A stretch of 32,000 nt of DNA from Mycolicibacterium smegmatis (GTDB lineage: Bacteria > Actinomycetota > Actinomycetes > Mycobacteriales > Mycobacteriaceae), in NCBI RefSeq assembly GCF_001457595.1, contig NZ_LN831039.1, forward strand, positions 6,840,001 through 6,872,000, written 5' to 3'. The translations under genes were made by a program, and so were the position numbers. Below, one piece after another: positions 7,198 to 31,529 of this stretch (position 1 is its first letter; each line of letters begins with the position of its first letter). Below the pieces are notes generated by a model, which was not told the DNA's origin, did no database searches, and was given only the letters and a program-made list of their open reading frames with translations.

Positions 7198-9729
7198 TCA
7201 CGCCCCGGCCAGGCGCGCGGCCAGGTACGGCGCGGTGCGGCTCGCGGTGCACGCGGCGACCACCTCGGGGGTCCCGGCCGCCACCACCGTGCCGCCGTCA
7301 TCGCCACCACCGGGGCCCAGATCGACGACATGATCGGCCCTCGCCACCACCGACATGTCGTGCTCGGCCACCACCACGGTGTTGCCTGCATCGACCAGGC
7401 GGTGCAGTTGACGTTCCAGCAGTTCGACATCGGCCGGGTGCAATCCGGTGGTGGGTTCGTCGAGCACGTAGAGGGTGTGGCCGCGTTTGGCGCGCTGCAG
7501 CTCAGAGGCCAGCTTGATGCGTTGTGCCTCACCGCCGGACAGCTCGGTGGCCGGTTGTCCCAGCCGCAGGTAGCCCAGGCCGACCTCGCGCAGCGTCGTC
7601 AAACTTCTTGCCGCGCCGGGTAGATCGCTGAGGAACTCGGCGGCCTCGTCCACGGTCTGCGCCAGCACGTCGGCGATGGTCCGTCCGCGGTAGGTGACCT
7701 CGAGTGTCTCGTCGGAGTAGCGGGCACCGCCGCAGGCCGGGCAGGTCGCGTAGGTGCCGGGCAGGAACAGCAATTCGACCGCGACGAATCCCTCACCCTG
7801 ACAGGTGGCGCAGCGGCCCTCCGCGACGTTGAACGAGAACCGGCCCGCGCTCCAGCCTCTCTTGCGTGCTTCCGGGGTGTCGGCGAATGCCTTTCGGACC
7901 GCGTCGAACAAACCGGTGTAGGTCGCGAGGTTGGATCGCGGGGTGCGTCCGATGGGCCGCTGATCCACGGTGACGAGGCGATCGATGATCTCGGCGCCCT
8001 CGACCGACACACCCATACTGGCGTCGACGTCGATGTCGAGCAGTTCGGCCTCACCGTCGCCGGCGTCGTCGGGGGTCTCGACGGACTTGCCCAACTGCCT
8101 GGCCATCACGTCGCCGAGGACCTTGCACACCAGCGTCGACTTTCCCGATCCGGAAACACCGGTGACCGCGACGAACGCGCCCAGCGGGATGTCCACGTCG
8201 ACGTCGTGCAGGTTGTGGAATGTGATGCCGCGCAAGCGCATCACGCCGACCGGCGTACGCGTCGATCTGTCGGCCTGCGCGCCGTCGGTGAACAGGTAGC
8301 GCCGCGTGACCGAGGACTCGACGTCGGCGAGACCCGCGACCGGGCCGCTGTAGAGCACCTCGCCGCCCCACTCCCCCGCGCCGGGACCGACGTCCACCAC
8401 CCAGTCCGCGCGTCGCACCACGTCCATGTCGTGTTCGACCACGAACAGCGAATTGCCCGCGCGCCGAAGGCGGTCCAGCACGTCGAGCAGCGGTTCGGCG
8501 TCGGCGGGGTGCAGGCCTGCCGACGGCTCATCGAGCACGTACAGCACGCCGAACAGTCCGGCCCGCAACTGGGTCGCCAGGCGCAGGCGCTGCAGTTCGC
8601 CGGGTGACACCGACGGTGTGCGTCGGTTCAGGCTCAGGTATCCCAGCCCGAGGTCGACGAGCACCCCGATGCGGGCCACCAGATCGGCCGCGATCATGGT
8701 CGCCACCTCGGTGAATTCGCCCGACTCGGTCGATTCGTAGGCCGCGGCGAACTCGGTGCGGGTGGCCGCGGGTGTCAGGACCTCGGCCAGCGTGGTCAAC
8801 GGCAACGCCACCAGGTCGGCGATGGTGCGGCCCGCGAACGTCACCGCGAGCGCCTCGGGACGCAGGCCCGAACCGTCGCAGACGTGGCAGTCGACGCTGT
8901 TGACGTACTGCAGCACCCGGCGTCGCATCGCCGCGCTCTGCGAGTTGGCCAGCGTATGGCGGACGTGCCGTTCGGCGCTGGAGAACGTGCCGTTGTAGTA
9001 GTAGTCCGCGGTCACGGGGTGTTGGCTGGGGTCGATCTCGACCGTGGGCTGATCCTCGGTGAACAGGATCCATTCCCGTTGCCGCTTGGGCAGTTTGCGC
9101 CACGGCTTGTCGATGTCGTAGCCCAGTGTGATGAGGATGTCGCGCAGGTTCTGCCCCTGCCAGGCGCCCGGCCACGCCGCCACCGCGCCTTCACGGATGG
9201 TCAGCGACGGGTCAGGGACCAGCGTCTCCTCGGTGACCTCGTGGATGCGGCCGAGGCCGTGGCACTGCGGGCACGCCCCGATGGTGGTGTTCGGCGAGAA
9301 CGCGTCGGAGTCGAGGCGTTCCGTCGCACCGGGCGGATAGGTCCCGGCGCGGGAGAACAGCATGCGCAGCAGGTTCGACAGTGTGGTGACGGTGCCGACG
9401 GTCGATCGTGACGTCGCGGTCCCACGTCGTTGCTGTAGCGCCACGGCCGGCGGCAGGCCCGTGATGTCGTCGACCTTCGGCGCGTCCTGCGGCAACAACA
9501 ATCGGCGCGCGTACGGCGCGACCGACTCGAAGTAACGGCGCTGGGCCTCGGCGTAGATTGTGCCGAACGCGAGCGAGGACTTCCCTGATCCGGACACGCC
9601 GGTGAACGCCACGAACGAGTCGCGCGGCGCGGCGACGTCGACGGTCTTGAGGTTGTGCACGCGGGAGGCGTAGACGCGTATGTACGGGTCGGGTTCGTGC
9701 GTGTCTGGTCCGGCGTTCACCGGGACCAT
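7198..9729 (-). CDS. UvrA-like ABC ATPase paralogue (class II-like, lacks the UvrB-binding domain)
   Basis: 843 aa. The N-terminus NLKTVDVAAPRDSFVAFTGVSGSGKSSLAFGTIYAEAQRRYFES is characteristic of UvrA. There are two ABC modules (second Walker A GVSGSGKST; signatures LSPGELQR and LSGGEAQR) and Cys-x2-Cys zinc modules (CPQCHGLG, CHVCDGSG, CATCQGEG, CPACGG). Confidence 0.92.
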   Translation of the reverse strand: MVPVNAGPDTHEPDPYIRVYASRVHNLKTVDVAAPRDSFVAFTGVSGSGKSSLAFGTIYAEAQRRYFESVAPYARRLLLPQDAPKVDDITGLPPAVALQQRRGTATSRSTVGTVTTLSNLLRMLFSRAGTYPPGATERLDSDAFSPNTTIGACPQCHGLGRIHEVTEETLVPDPSLTIREGAVAAWPGAWQGQNLRDILITLGYDIDKPWRKLPKRQREWILFTEDQPTVEIDPSQHPVTADYYYNGTFSSAERHVRHTLANSQSAAMRRRVLQYVNSVDCHVCDGSGLRPEALAVTFAGRTIADLVALPLTTLAEVLTPAATRTEFAAAYESTESGEFTEVATMIAADLVARIGVLVDLGLGYLSLNRRTPSVSPGELQRLRLATQLRAGLFGVLYVLDEPSAGLHPADAEPLLDVLDRLRRAGNSLFVVEHDMDVVRRADWVVDVGPGAGEWGGEVLYSGPVAGLADVESSVTRRYLFTDGAQADRSTRTPVGVMRLRGITFHNLHDVDVDIPLGAFVAVTGVSGSGKSTLVCKVLGDVMARQLGKSVETPDDAGDGEAELLDIDVDASMGVSVEGAEIIDRLVTVDQRPIGRTPRSNLATYTGLFDAVRKAFADTPEARKRGWSAGRFSFNVAEGRCATCQGEGFVAVELLFLPGTYATCPACGGARYSDETLEVTYRGRTIADVLAQTVDEAAEFLSDLPGAARSLTTLREVGLGYLRLGQPATELSGGEAQRIKLASELQRAKRGHTLYVLDEPTTGLHPADVELLERQLHRLVDAGNTVVVAEHDMSVVARADHVVDLGPGGGDDGGTVVAAGTPEVVAACTASRTAPYLAARLAGA

Positions 9730-9749: not shown

Positions 9750-10355
9750 TCAGGTCGGCAACTTGATCATCGAGGCGTACATCTCGACCATCGGCCGGTA
9801 GAGGTCGACGTTGTCGAGTTCGCTGCTCAGCACCACCGAATCGCTCGTCGCGACCAGCGCGTGGGCAAAGGTCTCCGGTGAGATCAGTAGCGTGGCACCC
9901 AGTTTCTCGATGCTCGCGACGATGAAAGCGGTCAACTGCGCGACCACCTCCGATCTCTTGGCGGCGACGCGGTCGCGCGCCTCGGGGTTGCGCTTGAGGT
10001 AGAGGGTGAACTCCAGGCCGAGCGCGGCCTGCTCGGCGCCCCGGTCGACGCTGAGCTGACGCCACCGCTTCGCGATCTCGTCGAGTTCTCGCGCCCCGAC
10101 GCTGGCGGCCGAGGCCATCACCTCGGCGAAGTTGTCGAAGTAGCGCCGCCAATAGCGGTCGCTGACCGCCAGGAACAGGTCCTCCTTGGTGGCGAAGTGC
10201 TTGTAGATGGCGCCCTTGGTGTAGCCGGCCGCGAACGCGATGTCATCGAGTGTCGCTGCGGTGAAGCCCTTTTCACTGAACACGTTCTCAGCCGCGTCGA
10301 GCAGCAGCGAGCGCGTGTGCTCGAGGCGTCGCTCACGGGTCCAGCGCTCAACCAT
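9750..10355 (-). CDS. TetR/AcrR family transcriptional regulator
   Basis: 201 aa. The N-terminal HTH is LLDAAENVFSEKGFTAATLDDIAFAAGYTKGAIYKHFATKEDLF. The gene ends 20 nt upstream of the UvrA-like start on the same strand, so the two are probably co-transcribed. Confidence 0.9.
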   Translation of the reverse strand: MVERWTRERRLEHTRSLLLDAAENVFSEKGFTAATLDDIAFAAGYTKGAIYKHFATKEDLFLAVSDRYWRRYFDNFAEVMASAASVGARELDEIAKRWRQLSVDRGAEQAALGLEFTLYLKRNPEARDRVAAKRSEVVAQLTAFIVASIEKLGATLLISPETFAHALVATSDSVVLSSELDNVDLYRPMVEMYASMIKLPT

Positions 10356-10418
10356 GGCAGAAGTCTGCCACAGGATTCTGAGAACCCATTGAGTTACTCA
10401 GATACTCGTGGGTATATT
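10356..10418. promoter_or_regulatory. Divergent control region: two inverted repeats plus a candidate promoter for the + strand cassette
   Basis: IR1 is GGCAGA-AG-TCTGCC (10356-10369), abutting the TetR ATG. IR2 is TCTGAGAAC-N7-GTTACTCAGA (10377-10402), with perfect outer 6-bp arms. The candidate promoter is -35 TTGAGT (10389-10394), an 18-nt spacer and -10 TATATT (10413-10418). IR2 overlaps the -35 element and spacer. Confidence 0.45.
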
Positions 10419-10460
10419 TCCGGACACCGCGCCACTGACGCGCGACGAGGAGGCTTTGTA

Positions 10461-11621
10461 GTGAGCGAACTGTCCGACAAGAAGGCCGCGGCCACCGAAT
10501 CGCTGCGCAGCGTGGGCCGCCTCGATGCGCCGCCTGCCGCCAAACCCTCGCGACGCGTCAAGATCTGGGCCACCGCGGGCGGCATCATCCTGGCCTTCCA
10601 GATCTACGTCTGGATCCGCTGGATAACCGGCCCGTACTTCACGCGCGTGGATCCCGGGCCCACCGATCCCCCGACCTTCATGAAGATCGCCCTGATGATG
10701 TGGCAGATCGGGTCGCCGGTGCTGTTCCCGGTCGCCATCTGGTGGTTCATCATCCGGCCGTGGCGACGTGAACGACGGATCACGCTCGACGGCATGATCA
10801 TGGTGTCCACCGGGCTGTTCTTCTTCCAGGACCCGCTGCTCAACTACATCAACACGTGGTGCACGTACAACGCGTGGGCGTTCAACATGGGCTCGTGGGC
10901 GCCGCACGTACCGGGCTGGATGTCCCCCGAGAAGCCCGGCGCGCAGGTGGCAGAACCGTTGGGCATCAACGTCTCCGGATACGCCTACGGAGTGCTGCTG
11001 TGTACGATCCTGGGCTGCTGGATCATGCGCAAGGCCCAGCAGCGCTGGCCCAACCTTGGCACCAAAGGCCTGATCGGCGTCGCGTTCGCGTGGGGTTTCG
11101 TCTTCGACTTCGTCATGGAGGGCCTGGTCCTCATGCCGCTGGGGATGTACACGTTCCCCGGCGCCATCCAGTCTCTGTCGATCAACGCGGGCACCTACTA
11201 CCAGTGGCCGATCTACGAGGGCCTCATGTGGGGCGGTGTACAGGCCGCGCTGTGCTGCCTGCGGTTCTTCACCGACGACCGCGGCCGCACCGTCGTCGAG
11301 AAGGGACTCGACAACGTGCGCGGCGGTTTCGCCAAGCAACAGTTGGTCCGCTTCCTGGCGATCTTCGCCGCGATCAGCGCGTCGTTCTTCACCTTCTACA
11401 TCGTTCCCGCGCAGTTCATGTCGACGCACGCCGATCCGTGGCCCGAGGATGTGCAGAAGAGGTCGTACTTCACCTCGGGCATCTGCGGTGACGGCACCGA
11501 CCGCCCGTGCCCGCATCCGGACCTGCCCATCCCCACCAAACACTCGGGGTACATCAACGTCGACGGCGAACTCGTCCTGCCCGAGGGTGTGGAGATGCCG
11601 GCTGTGGTTCCCCATGAGTGA
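10461..11621 (+). CDS. Polytopic (about 7 TM) membrane protein, AveC/spirocyclase-like family (family call from memory, unverified)
   Basis: The GTG start at 10461 is preceded by GGAGG (10448-10452). The protein is 386 aa and Trp/aromatic-rich, with about 7 hydrophobic helices (for example IILAFQIYVWIRWI and VLFPVAIWWFII). The soluble C-terminal tail contains CGDGTDRPCPH. The 474-aa track ORF overlaps the TetR gene and is rejected upstream of 10461. Confidence 0.7.
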   Translation: MSELSDKKAAATESLRSVGRLDAPPAAKPSRRVKIWATAGGIILAFQIYVWIRWITGPYFTRVDPGPTDPPTFMKIALMMWQIGSPVLFPVAIWWFIIRPWRRERRITLDGMIMVSTGLFFFQDPLLNYINTWCTYNAWAFNMGSWAPHVPGWMSPEKPGAQVAEPLGINVSGYAYGVLLCTILGCWIMRKAQQRWPNLGTKGLIGVAFAWGFVFDFVMEGLVLMPLGMYTFPGAIQSLSINAGTYYQWPIYEGLMWGGVQAALCCLRFFTDDRGRTVVEKGLDNVRGGFAKQQLVRFLAIFAAISASFFTFYIVPAQFMSTHADPWPEDVQKRSYFTSGICGDGTDRPCPHPDLPIPTKHSGYINVDGELVLPEGVEMPAVVPHE

Positions 11622-12417
11622 CGCCGCCGTGGTGCTCGAAAACCGTTCGCCGTTCTACGTTCCCGTGGCCGACGAGGCCGAGGTGTTCCGTGCCGCGGCC
11701 CGGCGCGGCACCCCGGTGCTCCTGAAGGGGCCGACCGGATGTGGCAAGACTCGGTTCGTCGAATCGATGGCCCACGAACTGGGGCGCGACCTGATCACGG
11801 TTGCGGGGCACGAGGACATGACCTCGGCCGACCTGGTGGGCCGGTTCCTGCTCAAGGGCGGTGAAACCATCTGGGTGGACGGACCGTTGACGCGCGCCGT
11901 GCGCACGGGTGCGATCTGTTACCTCGACGAGATCGTCGAGGCGCGCCAGGACACCACCGTGGTGATCCACCCGTTGGCCGATCACCGGCGTGAACTTCCC
12001 ATCGACCGCCTGGGCACCACACTGTCGGCGGTGCCGGGATTCCAGCTCGTGATCTCCTACAACCCCGGCTATCAGAGTGTGCTCAAGAGCATCAAAGAGT
12101 CGACGCGTCAGCGCTTCATAGCCATCGAATTGGATTTTCCGCCACCGCATGTGGAGACCGAGATCGTCGCGCATGAGGCAGGCGTCGACGCGGACACCGC
12201 ACGCGCGCTGGTGTCCGTCGGCGCCGCAATCCGCAACATCGACGGCTCACCGCTGCGCGAGGTCGCCTCTACCCGCATGCTCATCCTCGCCGGCGGTCTG
12301 GTCGCCGAGGGGTTGCCCCTGCGGCGCGCGGTCCGGGCTGCGATCGTCGAGGCACTGTCCGACGATCACGACATCATCCGTGCGCTCGGTGAACTCGTGG
12401 ACGCACACCTGCCGTGA
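11614..12417 (+). CDS. CbbQ/NirQ/NorQ-family AAA+ ATPase (MoxR-class, single module)
   Basis: 267 aa with Walker A GPTGCGKT and Walker B ICYLDEIVEA. The length is typical for CbbQ/NorQ. The ATG at 11614 overlaps the upstream stop by 8 nt (ATGAGTGA). Confidence 0.88.
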   Translation: MSDAAVVLENRSPFYVPVADEAEVFRAAARRGTPVLLKGPTGCGKTRFVESMAHELGRDLITVAGHEDMTSADLVGRFLLKGGETIWVDGPLTRAVRTGAICYLDEIVEARQDTTVVIHPLADHRRELPIDRLGTTLSAVPGFQLVISYNPGYQSVLKSIKESTRQRFIAIELDFPPPHVETEIVAHEAGVDADTARALVSVGAAIRNIDGSPLREVASTRMLILAGGLVAEGLPLRRAVRAAIVEALSDDHDIIRALGELVDAHLP

Positions 12418-14081
12418 CATCCGGGCACGATCCGGCGCAACTGCGCCTGCTGGCAAGCCACCTGGCGGCTCGTGCCGTCGACGTCGCGGAGGCGCTGCCG
12501 GGACGCCTGCCTCATACCGATGGCCGCGTGGTGTTCGTTTCGAGCGGCGGCTCAATGGAACAGCACCGGCGCGAGGTGCTGGTGCAGGCCGGCTTGCTGG
12601 GCGCGGGCAGTCTCGATCCCGCGCTGGTCCGGGGATTGCGCGCACGGTCGGCGCTGGCGCGCCGCTATCTGGCTGTCGAGGGTCACCGGGTGCTTGCCGA
12701 TCTGGCCCGGCGGCTTCCTCTTGCCGCCGGGCTCTCCGTCGGCGGCGCGGTGACGACATGCGCCGCCGAGTCGCTCGAAGTCGCGCGCAGCCGAACGAGG
12801 GTCGACGATCCCCCGCCGTGGTTCGGCGTCATCAAACCGCTACGGATCGGATCTGAGAGTGCGGGTACACGCCCCACGGATGCGGATCTGTACTTCAAGG
12901 TGCACGCCGACGAGCACGTGCAGGACGATGAGGACGACGGTCCGTCGGAGGAGAGCAAGATCCTCAAGCTGTTCGACAACCCGCTGTTCAATTCACGAGC
13001 GGTGGGCGATTTTCTGCGCACGCTGCTCGGCTCGTCGCCCGGATCGTCGGACAGCAGTTCCGGCGGCGCGGAACTGCGCACCGGCGGCGCGCGACGTGCC
13101 CGCGCGCCGGGTCTCGAAGCCCGCCCTCTTCCGACGCGCATCAGGTTCACCGACGACGCGAACCCCGGTGCCGCGGTCGGCGTGGGCGGTGCCCTACACC
13201 CCGAATGGGACGTCTTCAGGAACTGCTACCGCCCCCAATGGTGCCGCGTGATCGACTACCCGTTCACCGCGGGCGCCGACGTCACCGCCGCGCACGTGGT
13301 CGCCGACCAGGCACTGCGCAAGCGGCTGTCCCGGATCGGCCTGGGCCCGAAGGCATTGCGGCGCAGAGCCGACGGCGACGACCTCGACATCGAGGCGCTT
13401 GTGGATCTGTCGGTGGATCTGCGGTCGGGCTGGTCGCCCCCGGAACACATCTACGTCGAACACCGCAGGACCGCGCGTGATCTCGGCGTCCTGATCCTGG
13501 TGGACGCGTCCGGATCGGCCACCGATACCGACCCCGCCGGTCTGGCCGTGCACGACCATCAGCGGCGAGCTGCCGCGACCATCGCCGCGACCCTGGAAGA
13601 TCTCGGTGACCGGGTGGCCGTGTACGCCTTCCGGTCCAGGGGTCGCAGCGCCGTGCACCTGCCCGCCATCAAGAGGTTCGACCAACGTTTCACATCACTG
13701 GCCCGGGCTCGCCTCAACCAGTTGCAACCCGCGCATTACACCCGCCTCGGGGCGGCGATCCGCGGTGCCGGCGAGATTCTCAAGGTCGAGGCAGGCACGC
13801 CGAACCGGCTGCTGCTGGTGCTGTCCGACGGTCACCCGTACGACGACGGGTACGAGGGCCGCTACGCGGAGGCCGACGCCCACCGGGCGCTGGAGGAACT
13901 GCGTGTTGACGGGGTTGCGTGCTTGTGCCTGTCGATCGGCGCCGCGGCTGAAAGCGATGCGCTGCAACGTGTGTTCGGTGCGGCCAGCCATGCGAGCGCC
14001 GCGACGCTGGGTGAACTGTCCGGGCGCATGGACGAGCTCTTCCTGGCGGCGCTGCGCGAACTGGCCGCGCCGGCTCGGTGA
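12414..14081 (+). CDS. VWA-domain protein, NorD/CbbO-like partner of the AAA+ ATPase
   Basis: 555 aa. The C-terminal von Willebrand A domain carries a MIDAS motif (LILVDASGSATD, i.e. DxSxS) and a downstream LLLVLSDGHPYD. There is an acidic patch, DEHVQDDEDDGPSEE. The GTG start overlaps the upstream TGA (GTGA, 12414-12417). Confidence 0.85.
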   Translation: MTSGHDPAQLRLLASHLAARAVDVAEALPGRLPHTDGRVVFVSSGGSMEQHRREVLVQAGLLGAGSLDPALVRGLRARSALARRYLAVEGHRVLADLARRLPLAAGLSVGGAVTTCAAESLEVARSRTRVDDPPPWFGVIKPLRIGSESAGTRPTDADLYFKVHADEHVQDDEDDGPSEESKILKLFDNPLFNSRAVGDFLRTLLGSSPGSSDSSSGGAELRTGGARRARAPGLEARPLPTRIRFTDDANPGAAVGVGGALHPEWDVFRNCYRPQWCRVIDYPFTAGADVTAAHVVADQALRKRLSRIGLGPKALRRRADGDDLDIEALVDLSVDLRSGWSPPEHIYVEHRRTARDLGVLILVDASGSATDTDPAGLAVHDHQRRAAATIAATLEDLGDRVAVYAFRSRGRSAVHLPAIKRFDQRFTSLARARLNQLQPAHYTRLGAAIRGAGEILKVEAGTPNRLLLVLSDGHPYDDGYEGRYAEADAHRALEELRVDGVACLCLSIGAAAESDALQRVFGAASHASAATLGELSGRMDELFLAALRELAAPAR

Positions 14082-15477: not shown

Positions 15478-16520
15478 CTAGGTCGGTGTCGAAGCACCTG
15501 TCAACGAAGGGTCGTCCACCGCACGTAACGGCCGGTTGGCGGTCTCGCGCATCGTCAACACGGTCGCAAGGGACACGATTGCCGCAGCGATCACGTAGAA
15601 CGCAGCGGCAATGGGGTTGCCGGTCCGGTCGGCCAACCACGTCGCCACGTACGGCGCAGTGCCTCCGAACACCGCCACCGACACGCCCCCGTCTCGCTGA
15701 AGCCGAGGGTTGCCGTGAAGTACGTCGGCAGGTAGGTGAACACCACATAGAAGCCGACGTTGTGGATCACGACCAGACCGGCGATCTGCAGGATGGGCCG
15801 CCACGCCGTGCGCAGCGCCTCCTTCATCGGGGACTCGGCGACATCACCGGACTCCTGCAGCGCCTCGAACTCCGGGGTGTCGCGCAACCGCAGCCGGATG
15901 TAGAGGCCGACGCCCCCGAGAACCCCCGCGATGAAGAACGGCAGCCGCCACCCGTAGGCGTTCATCGCCTCGTCGGACAGCACGGCCCGCAACGCAGTGA
16001 CCGTCACCGAACCCAGCAGGAAACCGACCACCACCGACCACACCAGGAACGCGACCACCAGACCGCGGTGGCGCGTCGGGGCGTACTCCGCGAGAAAGCA
16101 CGCGCCGCTGCCGTATTCGCCGCCTGCCGAGAACCCCTGCACACACCGCAGCAGTACCAGCAGGATCGGTGCCGCGACACCGATCTTCTCGTAGCTGGGA
16201 ACCAACCCGATGCCAAGAGTGGCCAGCGCCATGAGGACAACCACGATCGCCAGCACCCGCTTGCGGCCGATCCGGTCACCGAGGGGCCCGAAGAAGAACC
16301 CACCCAGCGGTCGCATGAAGAACGCCACCGCGAACACGGCGAACGTGCTGAGCAACGCGGCGGTGCCGTTCGACTTCGGGAAGAACTCACGGGCGATGTA
16401 GGTGGCGAGAAAGCCGTAGATCGCGAAGTCGTACCACTCGACGGTGTTGCCTATGCCGGCTCCGAGCAATGCCTGACGTAGCGAGCCCGACTTGTGTTCG
16501 GCCACAGGTGCTGACGACAT
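15478..16520 (-). pseudogene. Disrupted MFS transporter of the metabolite:H+ symporter (MHS, ProP/KgtP-like) family
   Basis: The N-terminal roughly 283 aa ([14 protein letters not shown]..., [10 protein letters not shown], ...[15 protein letters not shown]) lie in one frame (ORF 15591-16520). The C-terminal end ([38 protein letters not shown]...) lies in another frame (ORF 15478-15804). The frames switch at the G/C run near 15686-15694. The combined length of about 345 aa compares with about 430-450 aa for the family, so TM8-TM10 appear to be missing. Confidence 0.72.
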
Positions 16521-28319: not shown

Positions 28320-28829
28320 TTACCTGGGTTCCGGCGGCAGCGAACTGTTGTGATTGAGGTTGACGTGGATGTGCTCGAGCGCGGCGGTGAACGGGGCGAG
28401 CAGATTCTCGGGCAGCGGGTCGAAGAACAGGCTGCGCACCAGGTCGACATGCCCCGGGGCGGCCTCCTGGATCGCGCGCCACCCGACCGCGGTGAGGACG
28501 ACGATGCTCGTGCGGCCGTCTTCGCGGCTCGGGCATCGCTCGGTGAGGCCGCGTTCCTCCATACGCCGCAACTGATGTGACAACCTGCTGCGCTCCCAGC
28601 CGATCTGCGCGGCCAGATCACTCACCCGCATACCCTTGTCGCCGACATCGCTCAGAGCCACCAGCACGTCGTAGTCCGACAGCGACAACCCCGAATCGGC
28701 CTGCAACTGGCGGTTCATCTCGTAGCTCATCCGCAGTTGCACCCGCATGAACGCGATCCAGGCGCGTTGCTGCTTCGGCGACAGCCATCCCCGTTTCGGT
28801 GATATGTCCCGTTTTTTCGCCGGCGTCAC
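28320..28829 (-). CDS. MarR family transcriptional regulator
   Basis: This is the C-terminal 169 codons of the 606-aa track ORF. The winged-helix region is LSLSDYDVLVALSDVGDKGMRVSDLAAQIGWERSRLSHQLRRMEERGLTER. The GTG at 28829 is the first plausible start upstream of the conserved LSPKQQRAWIAF helix. Confidence 0.82.
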   Translation of the reverse strand: MTPAKKRDISPKRGWLSPKQQRAWIAFMRVQLRMSYEMNRQLQADSGLSLSDYDVLVALSDVGDKGMRVSDLAAQIGWERSRLSHQLRRMEERGLTERCPSREDGRTSIVVLTAVGWRAIQEAAPGHVDLVRSLFFDPLPENLLAPFTAALEHIHVNLNHNSSLPPEPR

Positions 28830-28862
28830 GGTTGTCAGTATGACGGTCTGGCACGGCGGGCA

Positions 28863-29741
28863 TTGAGTTGTCGTATCGTGGCGGCCGTGCCTGTGCCACG
28901 CGACAGCGGGGCCGGCCGACCACCGCTGGCCGTGCGGATCGCCGCGGTGTTCGTCGGGGTCACCGCGATCTGGATGCTGCTCGGTGCCGGGGTGGGCGCA
29001 ATCCTCGGCGAGGAGTACAGCCGTCCCGCCCACATCGTGCGGGCCGTCGGCGCGACCGTGCTGACAGTTCCGGCGATCTTCGCTGCCCGCAGGCTTCTCG
29101 ACCGGGCACCGTTCTCCGGGCTGCAACTCACGTCCGTACGTGCCGGGTGGCGGCCGTTTGCGCTCGGCGTGCTGTGCTGGGCCGTGCCTGCCGCTGTGGC
29201 CGGTTCCGTTGTCGTCGCACTCGGATGGGCCGATCTGACGGTGGCCGCCTCGCCGGGCCGCCTGGTCGCGGGAGTCGCGGTGTTGACCGTCCTGGTCTTC
29301 CTGTACGAGGCATTGCCCGAGGAACTGATATTCCGCGGATACTTCTTCGCCAACGTCGCCGAACGCTGGTCCTCGACCGTGGCCGTACCGGCCCAGGCGA
29401 CACTGTTCACGCTGTGGGGCCTGGCGATCGGCGCGGCAGAATCGGTCGATCGCGTCGTGCTGTTCTTCACGTTCGCATGCGCCCTCGGAGTTCTGCGCGC
29501 CGTCACAGGAAATCTGTGGAGCAACATCGGTTTCCACTGGGCGTTCCAGATAACCGCGCAGTTCCTGGGTCCGAGTTGGGATGCCATCACCCTCGACGAT
29601 CCGGATCTCGCGTTCGGGGTCGCGATCAGCCTCGTCCCCTTCGCGGTGACGCTCATCGTCGCCGGGGTCATCGCGCGTCGTCGCCGCAGTCACGCGGCGC
29701 GGCTGTCCCGAGTCGGACACGGTGTGCCCCAATCGAGTTAG
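28863..29741 (+). CDS. CPBP family intramembrane glutamic endopeptidase (CAAX protease-like)
   Basis: The protein has multiple TM segments. Motif 1 is LPEELIFRGYFF (EExxxR), with a later FHWAFQ His motif. The start is uncertain: TTG 28863 or GTG 28878. Confidence 0.78.
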   Translation: MSCRIVAAVPVPRDSGAGRPPLAVRIAAVFVGVTAIWMLLGAGVGAILGEEYSRPAHIVRAVGATVLTVPAIFAARRLLDRAPFSGLQLTSVRAGWRPFALGVLCWAVPAAVAGSVVVALGWADLTVAASPGRLVAGVAVLTVLVFLYEALPEELIFRGYFFANVAERWSSTVAVPAQATLFTLWGLAIGAAESVDRVVLFFTFACALGVLRAVTGNLWSNIGFHWAFQITAQFLGPSWDAITLDDPDLAFGVAISLVPFAVTLIVAGVIARRRRSHAARLSRVGHGVPQSS

Positions 29742-29846
29742 CTGAGCGCTGTTCACCTCACGCACTACCGGGAAAGCGTTTACCGAGGGCCTCGATCGTG
29801 GGTAGTCTGAGCTGGTTGTGATCCACGCCACTACTGGGGGTAGGCC

Positions 29847-31529
29847 GTGTACCAGCAGGTTCTCGATCCGGTCGTCAACTCGCTCGCCTGGAGTGCAGCG
29901 GTTGCCGCCATCCCACTCCTTCTGCTGTTCGTACTGCTCGGTGTCTTCAAGATGACGGCCTGGAAGGCATCGCTCATCTCGCTGGCCGTCAGCATCGCGG
30001 TTGCCGTACTCGTCTACGGGATGCCGATAGGACAGTCCCTGTTGGCGGCCTCCGAGGGCGCGGCCTTCGGGTTCTTTCCGATCCTGTGGATCGTGATCAA
30101 CGCGATCTGGGTTTACCAGATGACCGTCGAGACAGGCCATTTCGATGTGCTACGGCGCTCCTTCAGCTCCATCAGCGACGACCAGCGCATCCAGGCCATC
30201 ATCATCACGTTCTCGTTCGGGGCCTTGCTCGAGGCGCTCGCCGGCTTCGGCACACCCGTGGCGGTCACGTCGGTGATGCTGATGGCCCTGGGCTTCCAGC
30301 CCTTGAAGGCTGCCGTGCTGGCGCTGGTCGCCAATACCGCGCCGGTGGCCTTCGGCGCGATGGCCACGCCGATCATCACGCTGGGCAAGGTCACCGAATT
30401 GGATTTCGACACACTCGGTGCGATGGTCGGCCGGCAGACACCGATCCTCGCGGTGTTCGTCCCGCTGGCGCTCGTGGCAATCGTCGACGGGCGCCGCGGC
30501 ATGCGCGCGGTATGGCCTGCGGCAGTGGTCTGTGGCGTGGTGTTCGCCGTCGCACAGTACGCCACATCGAACTTCCTCTCGGTGCCACTGGCCGACGTGG
30601 TGGCTTCGCTGGCATCGGCCGCCGCGGTGGTCGCGCTGGTCCGGGTGTGGCAACCCGCCAACACGTACACCGAAGTCGCCGAGCCTGCCGCGGTCACCAC
30701 GCATACCGGACCGCCGCCGCACGGCCGCAGTGGCGGCACGGGCGGCAGTGCGGACCTTCCCGAGCCAGATCAGAACGTCGAGGACGCCCGCGCCGACGTC
30801 GTCAAGGCGTACGCACCCTACGGGATCATCATCGGCGTCTTCGTGATCTGCCAGATCCCCGCGGTCAAAAGCCTTCTCGATTCGGCGACGTTCGCAGGGA
30901 ATTGGCCGGGTCTCAACGTGGTCGACGTCAACGGCGATCCGTCGTCGATGACGAAATTCACCCTGAACCTGCTGACCACTCCCGGCACGCAGATGCTCTT
31001 CGCGGGTGTGCTCACGATGGTCGCACTCAAACTGTCGGTGTCACGAGCGGCCAGGGCCTACTGGACGACGCTGCACCAATTGCGCTGGGCGATCCTCACC
31101 GTCATGGCGGTGCTCGCACTCGCATTCGTGATGAATCTGTCCGGTCAGACGATCACGCTCGGCACCTTCATGGCCGCCGCGGGCGGGGCGTTCGCATTGC
31201 TGTCGCCCATCCTGGGCTGGCTCGGGGTGGCCGTCACCGGATCGGACACCTCCGCGAACTCACTGTTCGGCGCGCTTCAGGTGACCGCCGCGTACCAGGC
31301 CGGCCTGTCGGATGTTCTGATGGCCGCCTCGAACAGTTCCGGTGGCGTCCTGGGCAAGATGGTCTCGCCGCAGAACCTTGCCATCGCGGCCGCGGCAGTC
31401 GGCCTCAACGGCAGGGAAGGCGACATCTTCCGTCGGGTGGTCCTGTGGAGTCTCGGTTTCCTGGTCCTGCTGTGCGCGTTGACGGCGCTGCAATCCTCAC
31501 CCGTGCTGTCGTGGATGGTGCCGTCCTGA
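29847..31529 (+). CDS. lldP: L-lactate permease (LctP family)
   Basis: 560 aa. The family-typical N-terminus is AAIPLLLLFVLLGVFKMTAWKASLISL...AFGFFPILWIVINAIWVYQMTVETGHF, and there are at least 12 TM segments. The start is GTG. Confidence 0.9.
   Translation: MYQQVLDPVVNSLAWSAAVAAIPLLLLFVLLGVFKMTAWKASLISLAVSIAVAVLVYGMPIGQSLLAASEGAAFGFFPILWIVINAIWVYQMTVETGHFDVLRRSFSSISDDQRIQAIIITFSFGALLEALAGFGTPVAVTSVMLMALGFQPLKAAVLALVANTAPVAFGAMATPIITLGKVTELDFDTLGAMVGRQTPILAVFVPLALVAIVDGRRGMRAVWPAAVVCGVVFAVAQYATSNFLSVPLADVVASLASAAAVVALVRVWQPANTYTEVAEPAAVTTHTGPPPHGRSGGTGGSADLPEPDQNVEDARADVVKAYAPYGIIIGVFVICQIPAVKSLLDSATFAGNWPGLNVVDVNGDPSSMTKFTLNLLTTPGTQMLFAGVLTMVALKLSVSRAARAYWTTLHQLRWAILTVMAVLALAFVMNLSGQTITLGTFMAAAGGAFALLSPILGWLGVAVTGSDTSANSLFGALQVTAAYQAGLSDVLMAASNSSGGVLGKMVSPQNLAIAAAAVGLNGREGDIFRRVVLWSLGFLVLLCALTALQSSPVLSWMVPS

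What the first reader, a model, noticed from the sequence alone, without database searches (positions are those of the whole stretch)
10461..14081. Q/D-type AAA+/VWA remodelling pair translationally coupled to an uncharacterised 7-TM membrane protein instead of a known client
Seen in sequence: three plus-strand genes form one translational unit, with an 8-nt ATGAGTGA overlap at 11614-11621 and a GTGA overlap at 12414-12417. Gene 2 is a 267-aa single-module AAA+ ATPase (GPTGCGKT, CYLDEI) of CbbQ/NirQ/NorQ size and type. Gene 3 is a 555-aa protein with a C-terminal VWA domain carrying an intact MIDAS (DASGS ... SDG), as in NorD/CbbO. Gene 1 is a 386-aa Trp-rich polytopic membrane protein that I recognise only loosely as AveC/spirocyclase-like. 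Established knowledge: Q/D pairs are dedicated maturation or repair machines for a specific neighbouring client. NorQD inserts non-heme FeB into the NorB subunit of cNOR, and CbbQO is a Rubisco activase. Inference: this window has no NorB/NorC, Rubisco or other known client, so the co-translated membrane protein is the most likely client or membrane anchor. That would be an undescribed AAA+/VWA-dependent maturation system for a membrane enzyme.
Basis: partly seen in the sequence, partly recalled or inferred. Interest (0 to 1): 0.75.

Follow-up and report, generated by a model that had tools for sequence, protein, structure and literature searches.

The report
NorQ/NorD-type remodeller paired with AveC-like membrane protein
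A soil mycobacterium carries a tightly packed operon in which a NorQ/NorD-type ATP-driven protein-remodelling pair follows a 7-helix AveC-family membrane protein of unknown fold; the same grouping recurs across actinobacteria, so the membrane protein is probably a new kind of client for this machine.

Summary
Three plus-strand genes (10461-11621, 11614-12417, 12414-14081) overlap by 8 and 4 nt. They encode an AveC_like (PF17198) 7-TM protein, a NorQ/CbbQ-type AAA+ ATPase and a VWA protein with an intact MIDAS. A TetR gene is transcribed divergently, next to an operator-like palindrome.

The window holds no NorB/NorC, Rubisco or Rieske gene. In 100 of 119 evaluable related loci, mainly Mycobacterium-group genera and Nocardia, an AveC-like gene is followed by Q and D. 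The link survives at 31-34% AveC identity in three other gene orders, including one in Streptomyces. Two look-ups started from the D protein also landed on TetR|AveC-Q-D.

D shares the VWA domain, finger and MIDAS with NorD. Its N-terminal domain and linker resemble only other AveC-linked D proteins. The AveC-like model is confident (pLDDT 92) and matches no solved structure.

The best reading is a dedicated Q/D remodeller acting from the cytoplasm on the AveC-like protein. What it does to that protein is inferred only. No His-type metal site is conserved, and about half of the distant AveC-like genes examined, plus some close ones, lack adjacent Q/D. I found no prior description, and databases call D "NorD". 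Verdict: a new variant of a known kind, of moderately high interest.

The parts
9750..10355 (-). Divergently transcribed TetR-family regulator, the probable repressor of the trio
   Evidence: Pfam TetR_N, E 8.5e-18. A divergent TetR homologue lies within 600 nt upstream of 144 of 172 evaluable AveC-like genes.
10389..10418 (+). Promoter-like site (TTGAGT-18-TATATT). It contains a conserved operator-like palindrome, AGATAC-N6-GTATAT (10400-10417), that overlaps the -10 hexamer.
   Evidence: Consensus scan. In an alignment of 13 TetR/AveC intergenic regions, CAGATAC...GGTAT(A/C)T is invariant or nearly so, and it is a perfect palindrome in L001. Function is inferred.
10447..10453 (+). Shine-Dalgarno sequence GAGGAGG of gene 1
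   Evidence: Read from the sequence. Conserved as GAGGAGG before the GTG/ATG start in most of the aligned relatives.
10461..11621 (+). Gene 1: a 386-aa AveC-family (PF17198, formerly DUF5135) 7-TM membrane protein, predicted N-in/C-out. Conserved acidic and polar residues (D124, N142, E220, E253) lie near the outer ends of the helices. The cytoplasmic loops RPWRRERRIT (99-108) and TDDRGRTVVEKG (271-282) are almost invariant. An extracytoplasmic C-terminal tail carries a conserved Cys pair (C342, C350).
   Evidence: Pfam 355 bits. AlphaFold2 pLDDT 92.4, pTM 0.88, seven helices. No PDB relative by sequence or by fold (best Foldseek E 0.2, TM below 0.25). Conservation. Charge distribution.
11614..12417 (+). 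Gene 2 (Q): a 267-aa single-module MoxR-class AAA+ ATPase of the CbbQ/NorQ type. Walker A is at 39-46, Walker B at 102-107, and the helix-2-insert motif GRFLLKGGET at 76-85.
   Evidence: Pfam AAA_5 and CbbQ_C. Solved NorQ 9qhd_A at E 7e-101 and CbbQ 5c3c at E 6e-90. The motif matches GRxLL/IxxxxT described for NorQ in PMC13036017. Its start overlaps the gene 1 stop by 8 nt.
12414..14081 (+). Gene 3 (D): a 555-aa NorD-like adaptor. It has a helical N-terminal domain (~1-140) and a disordered acidic linker (~141-261) with the conserved motif SKILKLFDNPLF (181-192). A finger region (~262-355) carries DGDDLDIEA. The VWA domain (357-551) has MIDAS residues D364, S366, S368, T443 and D472.
   Evidence: Pfam VWA_2/VWA. 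Residues 237-526 align to NorD 328-623, E 3e-34. The best Foldseek hit of the model is the NorD VWA domain 9qh6_G, E 8.5e-15. The MIDAS residues are invariant or nearly so in 30 homologues. The N-terminal domain aligns only with other AveC-linked D proteins. A 4-nt GTGA overlap joins it to gene 2.

Best explanation
The locus is a four-gene module: tetR, transcribed divergently, then aveC-like, Q and D. The TetR protein probably represses the operon at a palindrome that overlaps the -10 hexamer, until a still unknown, probably lipophilic, ligand binds it. The operon makes a 7-TM AveC-family membrane protein together with its own NorQ/NorD-type machine.

By analogy with NorQD acting on cNOR, the mechanism would run as follows. 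Q forms a hexameric AAA+ ring. The D finger inserts into the ring pore. The D MIDAS site and its family-specific N-terminal domain and linker hold the cytoplasmic face of the AveC-like protein. ATP-driven twisting then pulls on that face and opens or resets the helix bundle. The putative outward-facing acid/base site (D124, N142, E220, E253) thereby becomes or stays competent. This is a conformational activase or assembly role rather than insertion of a His-ligated metal.

Shown here: gene structure, family assignments, 7-TM topology, deep conservation of the linkage, and D-subfamily specificity. Inferred: physical contact, the direction of action, and the chemistry of the AveC-like protein.
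For: - **Tight packing.** The genes overlap by 8 and 4 nt. Similarly tight junctions are annotated in M. rhodesiae, M. phlei and N. gipuzkoensis.
- **Synteny.** 100 of 119 evaluable loci carry AveC followed by Q and D.
- **Linkage survives rearrangement.** At 31-34% AveC identity the genes occur as D-Q divergent from AveC (L083), as AveC-ACAD-Q-D (L164) and as AveC-D-Q in Streptomyces (L167).
- **Co-divergence.** In L083, D is 36% identical over its full length including the N-terminal domain, and Q is 60% identical.
- **D specificity.** The N-terminal domain and linker show no similarity to NorD, whose corresponding parts are proposed to hold the client.
- **Geometry.** Q and D have no TM segments, so they can reach only the cytoplasmic face. 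That face carries two nearly invariant loops with acidic residues D272, D273 and E280, candidate MIDAS ligands.
- **No alternative in the window.** No other known client is encoded there.
- **Unbiased check.** Both look-ups started from D returned the same module.
Against: - There is no direct evidence of contact; no multimer prediction or experiment was possible.
- The cytoplasmic loops are equally conserved in AveC-like paralogues that are not next to Q/D, so they do not mark a Q/D-specific interface.
- Several AveC-like genes have no Q/D within the available flanks: L002, L082, L168, L173 and L174.
- The family has no conserved His or Cys metal site inside the membrane, so the best-understood Q/D job, metal insertion, has no obvious target.
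- The locus set was collected starting from the AveC-like gene, which biases the synteny counts. Only two look-ups started from D.
Confidence: 0.6

Rival explanations
1. Q/D matures or reactivates a soluble metallo-oxygenase of the same catabolic pathway, such as a Rieske non-heme-iron oxygenase, a TauD-type dioxygenase or a P450. That enzyme would be encoded nearby in many relatives, or elsewhere in this genome. The AveC-like protein would only be a co-regulated pathway member, for example an enzyme or an uptake component.
For: In relatives the module often sits in an oxygenase-rich island. Counts out of 163 loci: Rieske alpha subunit 65, amidohydrolase 48, SDR 42, P450 26, F420-dependent LLM oxidoreductase 26, TauD 16. 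NorQD is known to insert non-heme iron (PMC13036017).
Against: None of these neighbours is universal, and none is in this 32-kb window. They vary in position and strand, whereas AveC-Q-D is fixed and overlapping. In distant lineages Q/D still track the AveC-like gene while the other neighbours change.
Confidence: 0.18
2. The AveC-like protein is a membrane conduit or anchor, not an enzyme client. Q/D would use ATP to drive uptake or extraction of a hydrophobic substrate through it, making an AAA+-energised transporter. Alternatively, Q/D would simply be tethered at the membrane to act on something else.
For: Distant AveC-like genes repeatedly sit next to Peripla_BP_6 solute-binding proteins without ABC permeases (L082, L164, L168). 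In N. gipuzkoensis the module is directly followed by an mce lipid-uptake operon. The fold is unlike any solved structure.
Against: No AAA+/VWA pair is known to energise transport. From my own knowledge, AveC itself is genetically and biochemically an enzyme (spiroketalisation and dehydration). The window has no adjacent binding-protein gene.
Confidence: 0.12
3. The three genes are co-transcribed for regulatory economy only, and Q/D have no specific functional relationship with the membrane protein.
For: Some close AveC-like genes, such as L002, L059 and L060, lack adjacent Q/D.
Against: Linkage is kept through at least four gene orders and down to about 31% identity. The D N-terminal domain also co-diverges with the AveC-like gene. 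Both are hard to explain without selection for co-function.
Confidence: 0.05

Closest known systems
NorQ/NorD (with cNOR NorCB) of denitrifying proteobacteria
   Same: Q matches solved NorQ at E 7e-101, including the P-loop Cys and the H2-insert motif. D shares the VWA domain, the MIDAS, the finger region (DGDDLDIEA) and an acidic or disordered linker. The client is also an integral membrane protein approached from the cytoplasm.
   Different: No norC or norB lies in the window or in the loci examined. The D N-terminal domain and linker are unrelated in sequence to NorD, and D is about 85-90 residues shorter. The putative client is not a heme-copper-oxidase-type protein and has no conserved His site for a non-heme iron.
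CbbQ/CbbO Rubisco activase
   Same: Q matches CbbQ 5c3c at E 6e-90. The logic is the same: a Q hexamer plus a VWA/MIDAS adaptor encoded next to the client. It also sets a precedent for conformational reactivation without metal insertion (the role is from established knowledge).
   Different: There is no Rubisco gene here. By my recollection CbbO is a larger protein. The client here is in the membrane.
AveC / MeiC spirocyclase-dehydratases of avermectin and meilingmycin biosynthesis (Pfam PF17198)
   Same: Gene 1 matches the AveC_like model end to end at 355 bits. AveC also lacks a solved structure and is reported as difficult to express (PMC13303154).
   Different: The recurrent neighbours are catabolic oxygenases, a TetR regulator and Q/D, not a polyketide synthase cluster. 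Spirocyclase activity is untested. By my recollection of the cluster, AveC has no adjacent Q/D.
Other MoxR-class AAA+/VWA pairs acting on respiratory or metallo-enzymes (RavA-ViaA with fumarate reductase; CoxD/CoxE with CO dehydrogenase)
   Same: The general design is the same: a MoxR-class ATPase with a VWA partner that modulates a membrane-associated enzyme complex (PMC10585395, listed).
   Different: These belong to different MoxR subfamilies. Q here is of the CbbQ/NorQ type, with a CbbQ_C domain.

Membership tests
CbbQ/NorQ-type MoxR AAA+ ATPase (gene 2) | Single AAA+ module with AAA_5 and CbbQ_C domains, about 260-280 aa | tested here: met
   Pfam AAA_5 at 2e-33 and CbbQ_C at 3e-28; 267 aa.
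CbbQ/NorQ-type MoxR AAA+ ATPase (gene 2) | Walker A, Walker B and the helix-2-insert motif GRxLL/IxxxxT that grips the D finger | tested here: met
   GPTGCGKT at 39-46, CYLDEI at 102-107 and GRFLLKGGET at 76-85. The motif definition comes from PMC13036017.
CbbQ/NorQ-type MoxR AAA+ ATPase (gene 2) | Hexamer formation and D-stimulated ATPase activity | not testable with these tools
   Requires biochemistry.
NorD-type VWA adaptor (gene 3) | C-terminal VWA domain with a complete MIDAS (DxSxS...T...D) | tested here: met
   D364, S366, S368, T443 and D472 are invariant or nearly so in 30 homologues. The best Foldseek hit is the NorD VWA domain, E 8.5e-15.
NorD-type VWA adaptor (gene 3) | Finger extension that enters the Q pore | tested here: inconclusive
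   Residues ~300-355 align with the NorD finger region and share DGDDLDIEA. The model has low confidence there, with pLDDT below 50 at 311-354.
NorD-type VWA adaptor (gene 3) | N-terminal domain and linker homologous to those of NorD | tested here: not met
   phmmer and tblastn align only residues ~237-537 to NorD. The N-terminal domain aligns only to other AveC-linked D proteins.
NorD-type VWA adaptor (gene 3) | Encoded with norC/norB and required for FeB insertion into cNOR | tested here: not met
   No nor genes are in the window or among the recurrent neighbours in 163 loci. The database name 'nitric oxide reductase activation protein NorD' therefore looks like over-annotation.
CbbO Rubisco-activase adaptor | Encoded next to Rubisco or carboxysome genes | tested here: not met
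   No Rubisco gene is in the window or in the related loci.
AveC spirocyclase family (gene 1) | Match to Pfam PF17198 above the gathering score | tested here: met
   355 bits against a cut-off of 26.6, covering model positions 1-234 of 234.
AveC spirocyclase family (gene 1) | Located in a polyketide (macrolide) biosynthetic cluster and acting as spirocyclase/dehydratase | tested here: not met
   The context is TetR, Q/D and catabolic oxygenases. No PKS appears among the window genes or the recurrent neighbours. Enzymatic activity cannot be tested here.
MoxR/VWA anti-phage or conflict systems | Match to known defence-system protein models | tested here: not met
   PADLOC gives only weak P-loop-level hits for Q (E 1e-4 or weaker) and none for gene 1 or gene 3.

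The most novel reading that the evidence does not exclude
AveC-family 7-TM proteins are a third, previously unrecognised client class for CbbQ/NorQ-type AAA+/VWA machines. Here the motor would work from the cytoplasm as a conformational activase, or assembly factor, for a membrane protein with no conserved His-type metal site and a fold absent from the PDB. It would not be acting as an inserter of a His-ligated metal. The module is widespread in Mycobacterium-group genera, Nocardia and some Streptomyces, and is currently mislabelled as NorD/NorQ.
Probability: 0.5. Interest if true: 0.75.

Novelty: new variant of a known kind. Interest (0 to 1): 0.62.

Why it matters
- **Known clients are few.** The only clients I know of for CbbQ/NorQ-type Q/D machines are cNOR and Rubisco. 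A conserved, abundant pairing with an AveC-family membrane protein would widen what this motor is thought to do. It would also provide a second membrane-protein client for testing the recently proposed twisting mechanism.
- **A handle on AveC biology.** AveC controls the avermectin B1:B2 ratio, yet it has no structure and is hard to express. If some family members need a Q/D partner to fold or stay active, co-expression could help structural and engineering work.
- **Annotation.** Hundreds of actinobacterial genes named 'nitric oxide reductase activation protein NorD' would need renaming.
- **A tractable system.** The TetR-controlled module sits in hydrophobic-substrate catabolic islands of soil mycobacteria and Nocardia. 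That offers a practical route to finding its substrate.

Tried and rejected
- **Diosgenin or spiroketal catabolism.** I considered this because AveC makes spiroketals. The Mycolicibacterium HK-90 diosgenin paper has no occurrence of 'AveC' or 'spirocyclase' in its text, so I dropped the idea as unsupported.
- **Defence system.** PADLOC gave nothing meaningful.
- **A differential-conservation test.** I asked whether the cytoplasmic loops are more conserved in Q-adjacent AveC-like proteins than in other paralogues. They are equally conserved, so this gives no interface signal.
- **Reaching distant loci in bulk.** The 52-sequence alignment was too divergent for the pattern search. The genome scan and the 12-sequence metagenome scan both returned only the close 62-94% clade. 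Two look-ups hit contigs too short to be useful.
- **Plasmid collection.** The D search found only proteobacterial NorD. The AveC search found two distant copies without Q/D.
- **Literature.** Searches for AveC-like, DUF5135, and NorQ/NorD in actinobacteria found no prior description.


Full report
**1. Observation**

ORF listing and direct reading confirm three plus-strand genes.

- Gene 1 runs 10461-11621. It has a GTG start and a GAGGAGG Shine-Dalgarno at 10447-10453, and encodes 386 aa.
- Gene 2 runs 11614-12417 and encodes 267 aa.
- Gene 3 runs 12414-14081 and encodes 555 aa.
- The junctions are ccccATGAGTGAcg, an 8-nt overlap, and ctgccGTGAcat, a 4-nt overlap.

Pfam assigns gene 1 to AveC_like (PF17198) at 355 bits over the full model. 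Gene 2 hits AAA_5 and CbbQ_C. Gene 3 hits VWA_2/VWA at residues 359-524. NCBIfam has no specific model for genes 1 and 3.

The quoted motifs are all present. Gene 2 has GPTGCGKT at 39-46 and CYLDEI at 102-107. Gene 3 has DASGS at 364-368 and SDG at 471-473. Gene 1 has 17 Trp, or 4.4%.

A TetR gene (9750-10355, minus strand) is transcribed divergently.

Pfam scans of the remaining window ORFs found the following: LacI, a sugar ABC transporter, PfkB kinases, beta-lactamase-family proteins, a UvrA-like protein, an MpaB-family oxygenase, an MFS transporter, an Amidohydro_2 protein, MarR regulators, a molybdopterin oxidoreductase, a sigma factor, SurE and a lactate permease. There is no NorB/NorC, Rubisco or Rieske protein.

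**2. The individual proteins**

*Q.* Q is very close to solved NorQ (9qhd_A, E 7e-101) and to CbbQ (5c3c, E 6e-90). It carries the helix-2-insert motif GRxLLxxxxT (GRFLLKGGET, 76-85). In the 2026 NorQD cryo-EM study this motif grips the NorD finger.

*D.* D aligns with NorD only over residues 237-526, against NorD 328-623 (E 3e-34). That stretch includes the finger region, with the shared DGDDLDIEA, and the MIDAS. Across 30 homologues D364, S368, T443 and D472 are invariant, and S366 is S or T.

An AlphaFold2 model of D has modest overall confidence (mean pLDDT 62.9). It shows a helical N-terminal domain (~1-140), a disordered acidic linker (141-261) and a VWA domain (357-551). Its best PDB fold matches are the NorD VWA chains, led by 9qh6_G at E 8.5e-15.

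The N-terminal 240 residues have no detectable similarity to NorD. They do align with D proteins from very distant AveC-linked loci: 36% identity over the full length with L083.

Neither Q nor D has a TM-like segment.

*The AveC-like protein.* It gave a high-confidence model (pLDDT 92.4, pTM 0.88) with seven long helices. The charge distribution fits an N-in/C-out topology. It has no relative in the PDB by sequence or by fold (best Foldseek E 0.2, TM below 0.25).

I aligned it with 51 representatives at 30-43% identity. The invariant or nearly invariant polar residues fall into three groups.

- D124, N142, E220 and E253 lie near the predicted outer ends of the helices.
- D273, G275, E280, R281 and G282 lie in the TM6-TM7 cytoplasmic loop.
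- A Cys pair (C342, C350) lies in the external C-terminal tail.

No His is conserved. A non-heme-iron site like that of NorB is therefore not evident.

**3. Comparative genomics**

The family is large, with 1123 representatives at the 50% clustering level. I collected 79 genome loci, 80 metagenome loci and individual look-ups.

tblastn with the window proteins gave the following counts.

- 143 AveC-like genes have at least 2.6 kb of downstream sequence.
- Of these, 106 have Q and D directly downstream.
- 11 more have D within 3.5 kb, a spacing consistent with AveC-AveC-Q-D tandems.
- 26 have neither.
- 100 of 119 evaluable loci contain AveC followed by Q and D.
- A divergent TetR is present for 144 of 172 evaluable genes.

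The taxa are Mycolicibacterium, Mycobacterium, Mycolicibacter, Nocardia, Williamsia and uncultured Actinomycetota. The closest relative is Mycobacterium sp. SMC-4 at 94% identity.

The linkage persists in distant lineages with different gene orders.

| Locus | AveC identity | Arrangement |
|---|---|---|
| L083 | 31% | D-Q divergent from AveC |
| L164 | 34% | Peripla_BP_6, AveC, Acyl-CoA_dh_2, Q, D |
| L167 (Streptomyces sp. cg40) | 33% | AveC, D, Q, flavin reductase |

Two look-ups that started from D proteins, not from AveC, returned TetR|AveC-Q-D in M. phlei and N. gipuzkoensis.

The link is not universal. The following have no Q/D in the available flanks: L002 (Actinocorallia, 66% identity), L082 and L168 (arrays of 3-5 AveC paralogues with P450, Rieske and Peripla_BP_6 genes), L173 (Paraburkholderia) and L174 (M. 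branderi).

Beyond the four core genes, neighbours are variable. ORF clustering counted these families out of 163 loci:

- GbcA-like Rieske oxygenase alpha subunit, 65 loci, often with a small 109-aa protein
- Amidohydro_1, 48 loci
- SDR, 42 loci
- acyl-CoA dehydrogenase, 33 loci
- MarR, 31 loci
- P450, 26 loci
- F420-dependent LLM oxidoreductase, 26 loci
- epimerase, 24 loci
- TauD, 16 loci

None of these is in this window, which therefore carries a minimal version of the module.

**4. Regulation**

The tetR/aveC intergenic region has a promoter-like site (10389-10418). A conserved palindrome, AGATAC-N6-GTAT(A/C)T (10400-10417), overlaps its -10 hexamer. This fits TetR repression, but the function is inferred.

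**5. Interpretation**

The strongest statement the data allow is that Q/D and the AveC-like gene have been inherited as a functional module across deep divergence and through rearrangements. The D adaptor of this module also has its own N-terminal domain and linker. In NorD, those are the parts proposed to grasp the client.

Q and D are soluble, so the only accessible surface of the AveC-like protein is its cytoplasmic face. That face has two almost invariant loops, RPWRRERRIT and TDDRGRTVVE(K/R)G. The acidic residues D272, D273 and E280 are plausible MIDAS ligands. The basic face is complementary to the poly-acidic linker of D. These last points are inference.

I therefore favour a NorQD-like twisting or pulling action on the AveC-like protein, serving as a conformational activase or assembly factor (confidence about 0.6 that the AveC-like protein is the direct partner). 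Insertion of a His-ligated metal is disfavoured because no such site is conserved.

The absence of Q/D next to some family members parallels cNORs that lack NorQD (PMC12067857, listed). It suggests an accessory role specific to certain lineages.

**6. Rivals**

- Q/D may instead serve a soluble oxygenase of the surrounding catabolic islands (about 0.18). Those genes are not universal and are absent from this window.
- The AveC-like protein may be a conduit or anchor, with Q/D energising the movement of a hydrophobic substrate (about 0.12). Recurrent Peripla_BP_6 neighbours and an mce operon downstream in Nocardia hint at this.
- The genes may simply be co-regulated (about 0.05).

**7. Novelty**

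Full-text searches found no description of an AveC-like/Q/D module. The two NorQD structural papers do not mention AveC or actinobacteria. Public annotation names D 'nitric oxide reductase activation protein NorD', which the context does not support.

This is a new variant of a known kind: a Q/D AAA+/VWA remodeller with a new, structurally uncharacterised membrane partner.

**8. Limits**

- No multimer prediction or experiment was possible.
- Locus sampling started mostly from the AveC-like gene.
- The biochemical function of the AveC-like protein is extrapolated from AveC.
- The D model has only modest confidence outside the VWA domain and the N-terminal domain.

Noticed in passing
window 15478-16520 (- strand): The MFS/sugar-transporter gene appears split. 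A 309-aa ORF (15591-16520) holds only the N-terminal part of the Sugar_tr/MFS_1 profiles. An overlapping 108-aa hydrophobic ORF (15478-15804) lies in another frame and has no Pfam hit. This is probably a frameshift pseudogene or a sequencing error.
   Followed up: partly
L001, L008-L017, L085, L152, L156 and others (loci related to window 9750-14081): In many relatives the TetR|AveC-Q-D core is flanked on both sides. Upstream lie a GbcA-like Rieske oxygenase, a 109-aa protein, an Xaa-Pro-dipeptidase-like amidohydrolase and MarR. Downstream lie an acyl-CoA dehydrogenase, an epimerase, a 247-aa unknown protein and a TIGR03564 F420-dependent LLM oxidoreductase. None of these is present in this window.
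   Followed up: partly
L082 (773-7968); L168 (10001-12231 and 19247-20296): Some uncultured actinobacteria carry arrays of 3-5 AveC-like paralogues interleaved with P450, Rieske, Fer2, Amidohydro_2 and Peripla_BP_6 solute-binding genes. No Q/D lies nearby. A binding protein beside a 7-TM protein, without ABC permease genes, is unexplained.
   Followed up: no
L171 (4012-13692), Nocardia gipuzkoensis: The AveC-Q-D module is immediately followed by an mce-type lipid-uptake operon (two MlaE/YrbE genes and several MlaD/Mce genes). This hints at a link with the handling of hydrophobic substrates at the membrane.
   Followed up: no
proteins P0324-P0438 (homologues of window 12414-14081): NCBI, UniRef and JGI name most of these mycobacterial and Nocardia proteins 'nitric oxide reductase activation protein NorD' or 'Mg-chelatase subunit ChlD'. 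No nor genes are adjacent in the loci examined, so this is probably systematic over-annotation.
   Followed up: partly
window 28320-30140 (- strand) versus 29847-31529 (+ strand): A 606-aa ORF has a MarR domain only at its C-terminus (residues 483-553). It overlaps the 5' end of the lactate permease gene on the opposite strand by about 300 nt. The true MarR gene probably starts much further downstream.
   Followed up: no
window 7198-9729 (- strand): An 843-aa UvrA-like ABC ATPase (UvrA DNA-binding domain plus ABC_tran), probably a UvrA paralogue, lies directly upstream of tetR. A protein of the same ORF cluster (c8) neighbours the module in several related loci.
   Followed up: no
window gene 2, residue C43 (GPTGCGKT): The P-loop cysteine is conserved. 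In Paracoccus NorQ it forms an inhibitory disulphide with C68. The position aligned to NorQ C68 is Gly here (VAGHED) but Cys in the distant L083 homologue (VACHED). The proposed redox switch may therefore not operate in this protein.
   Followed up: partly
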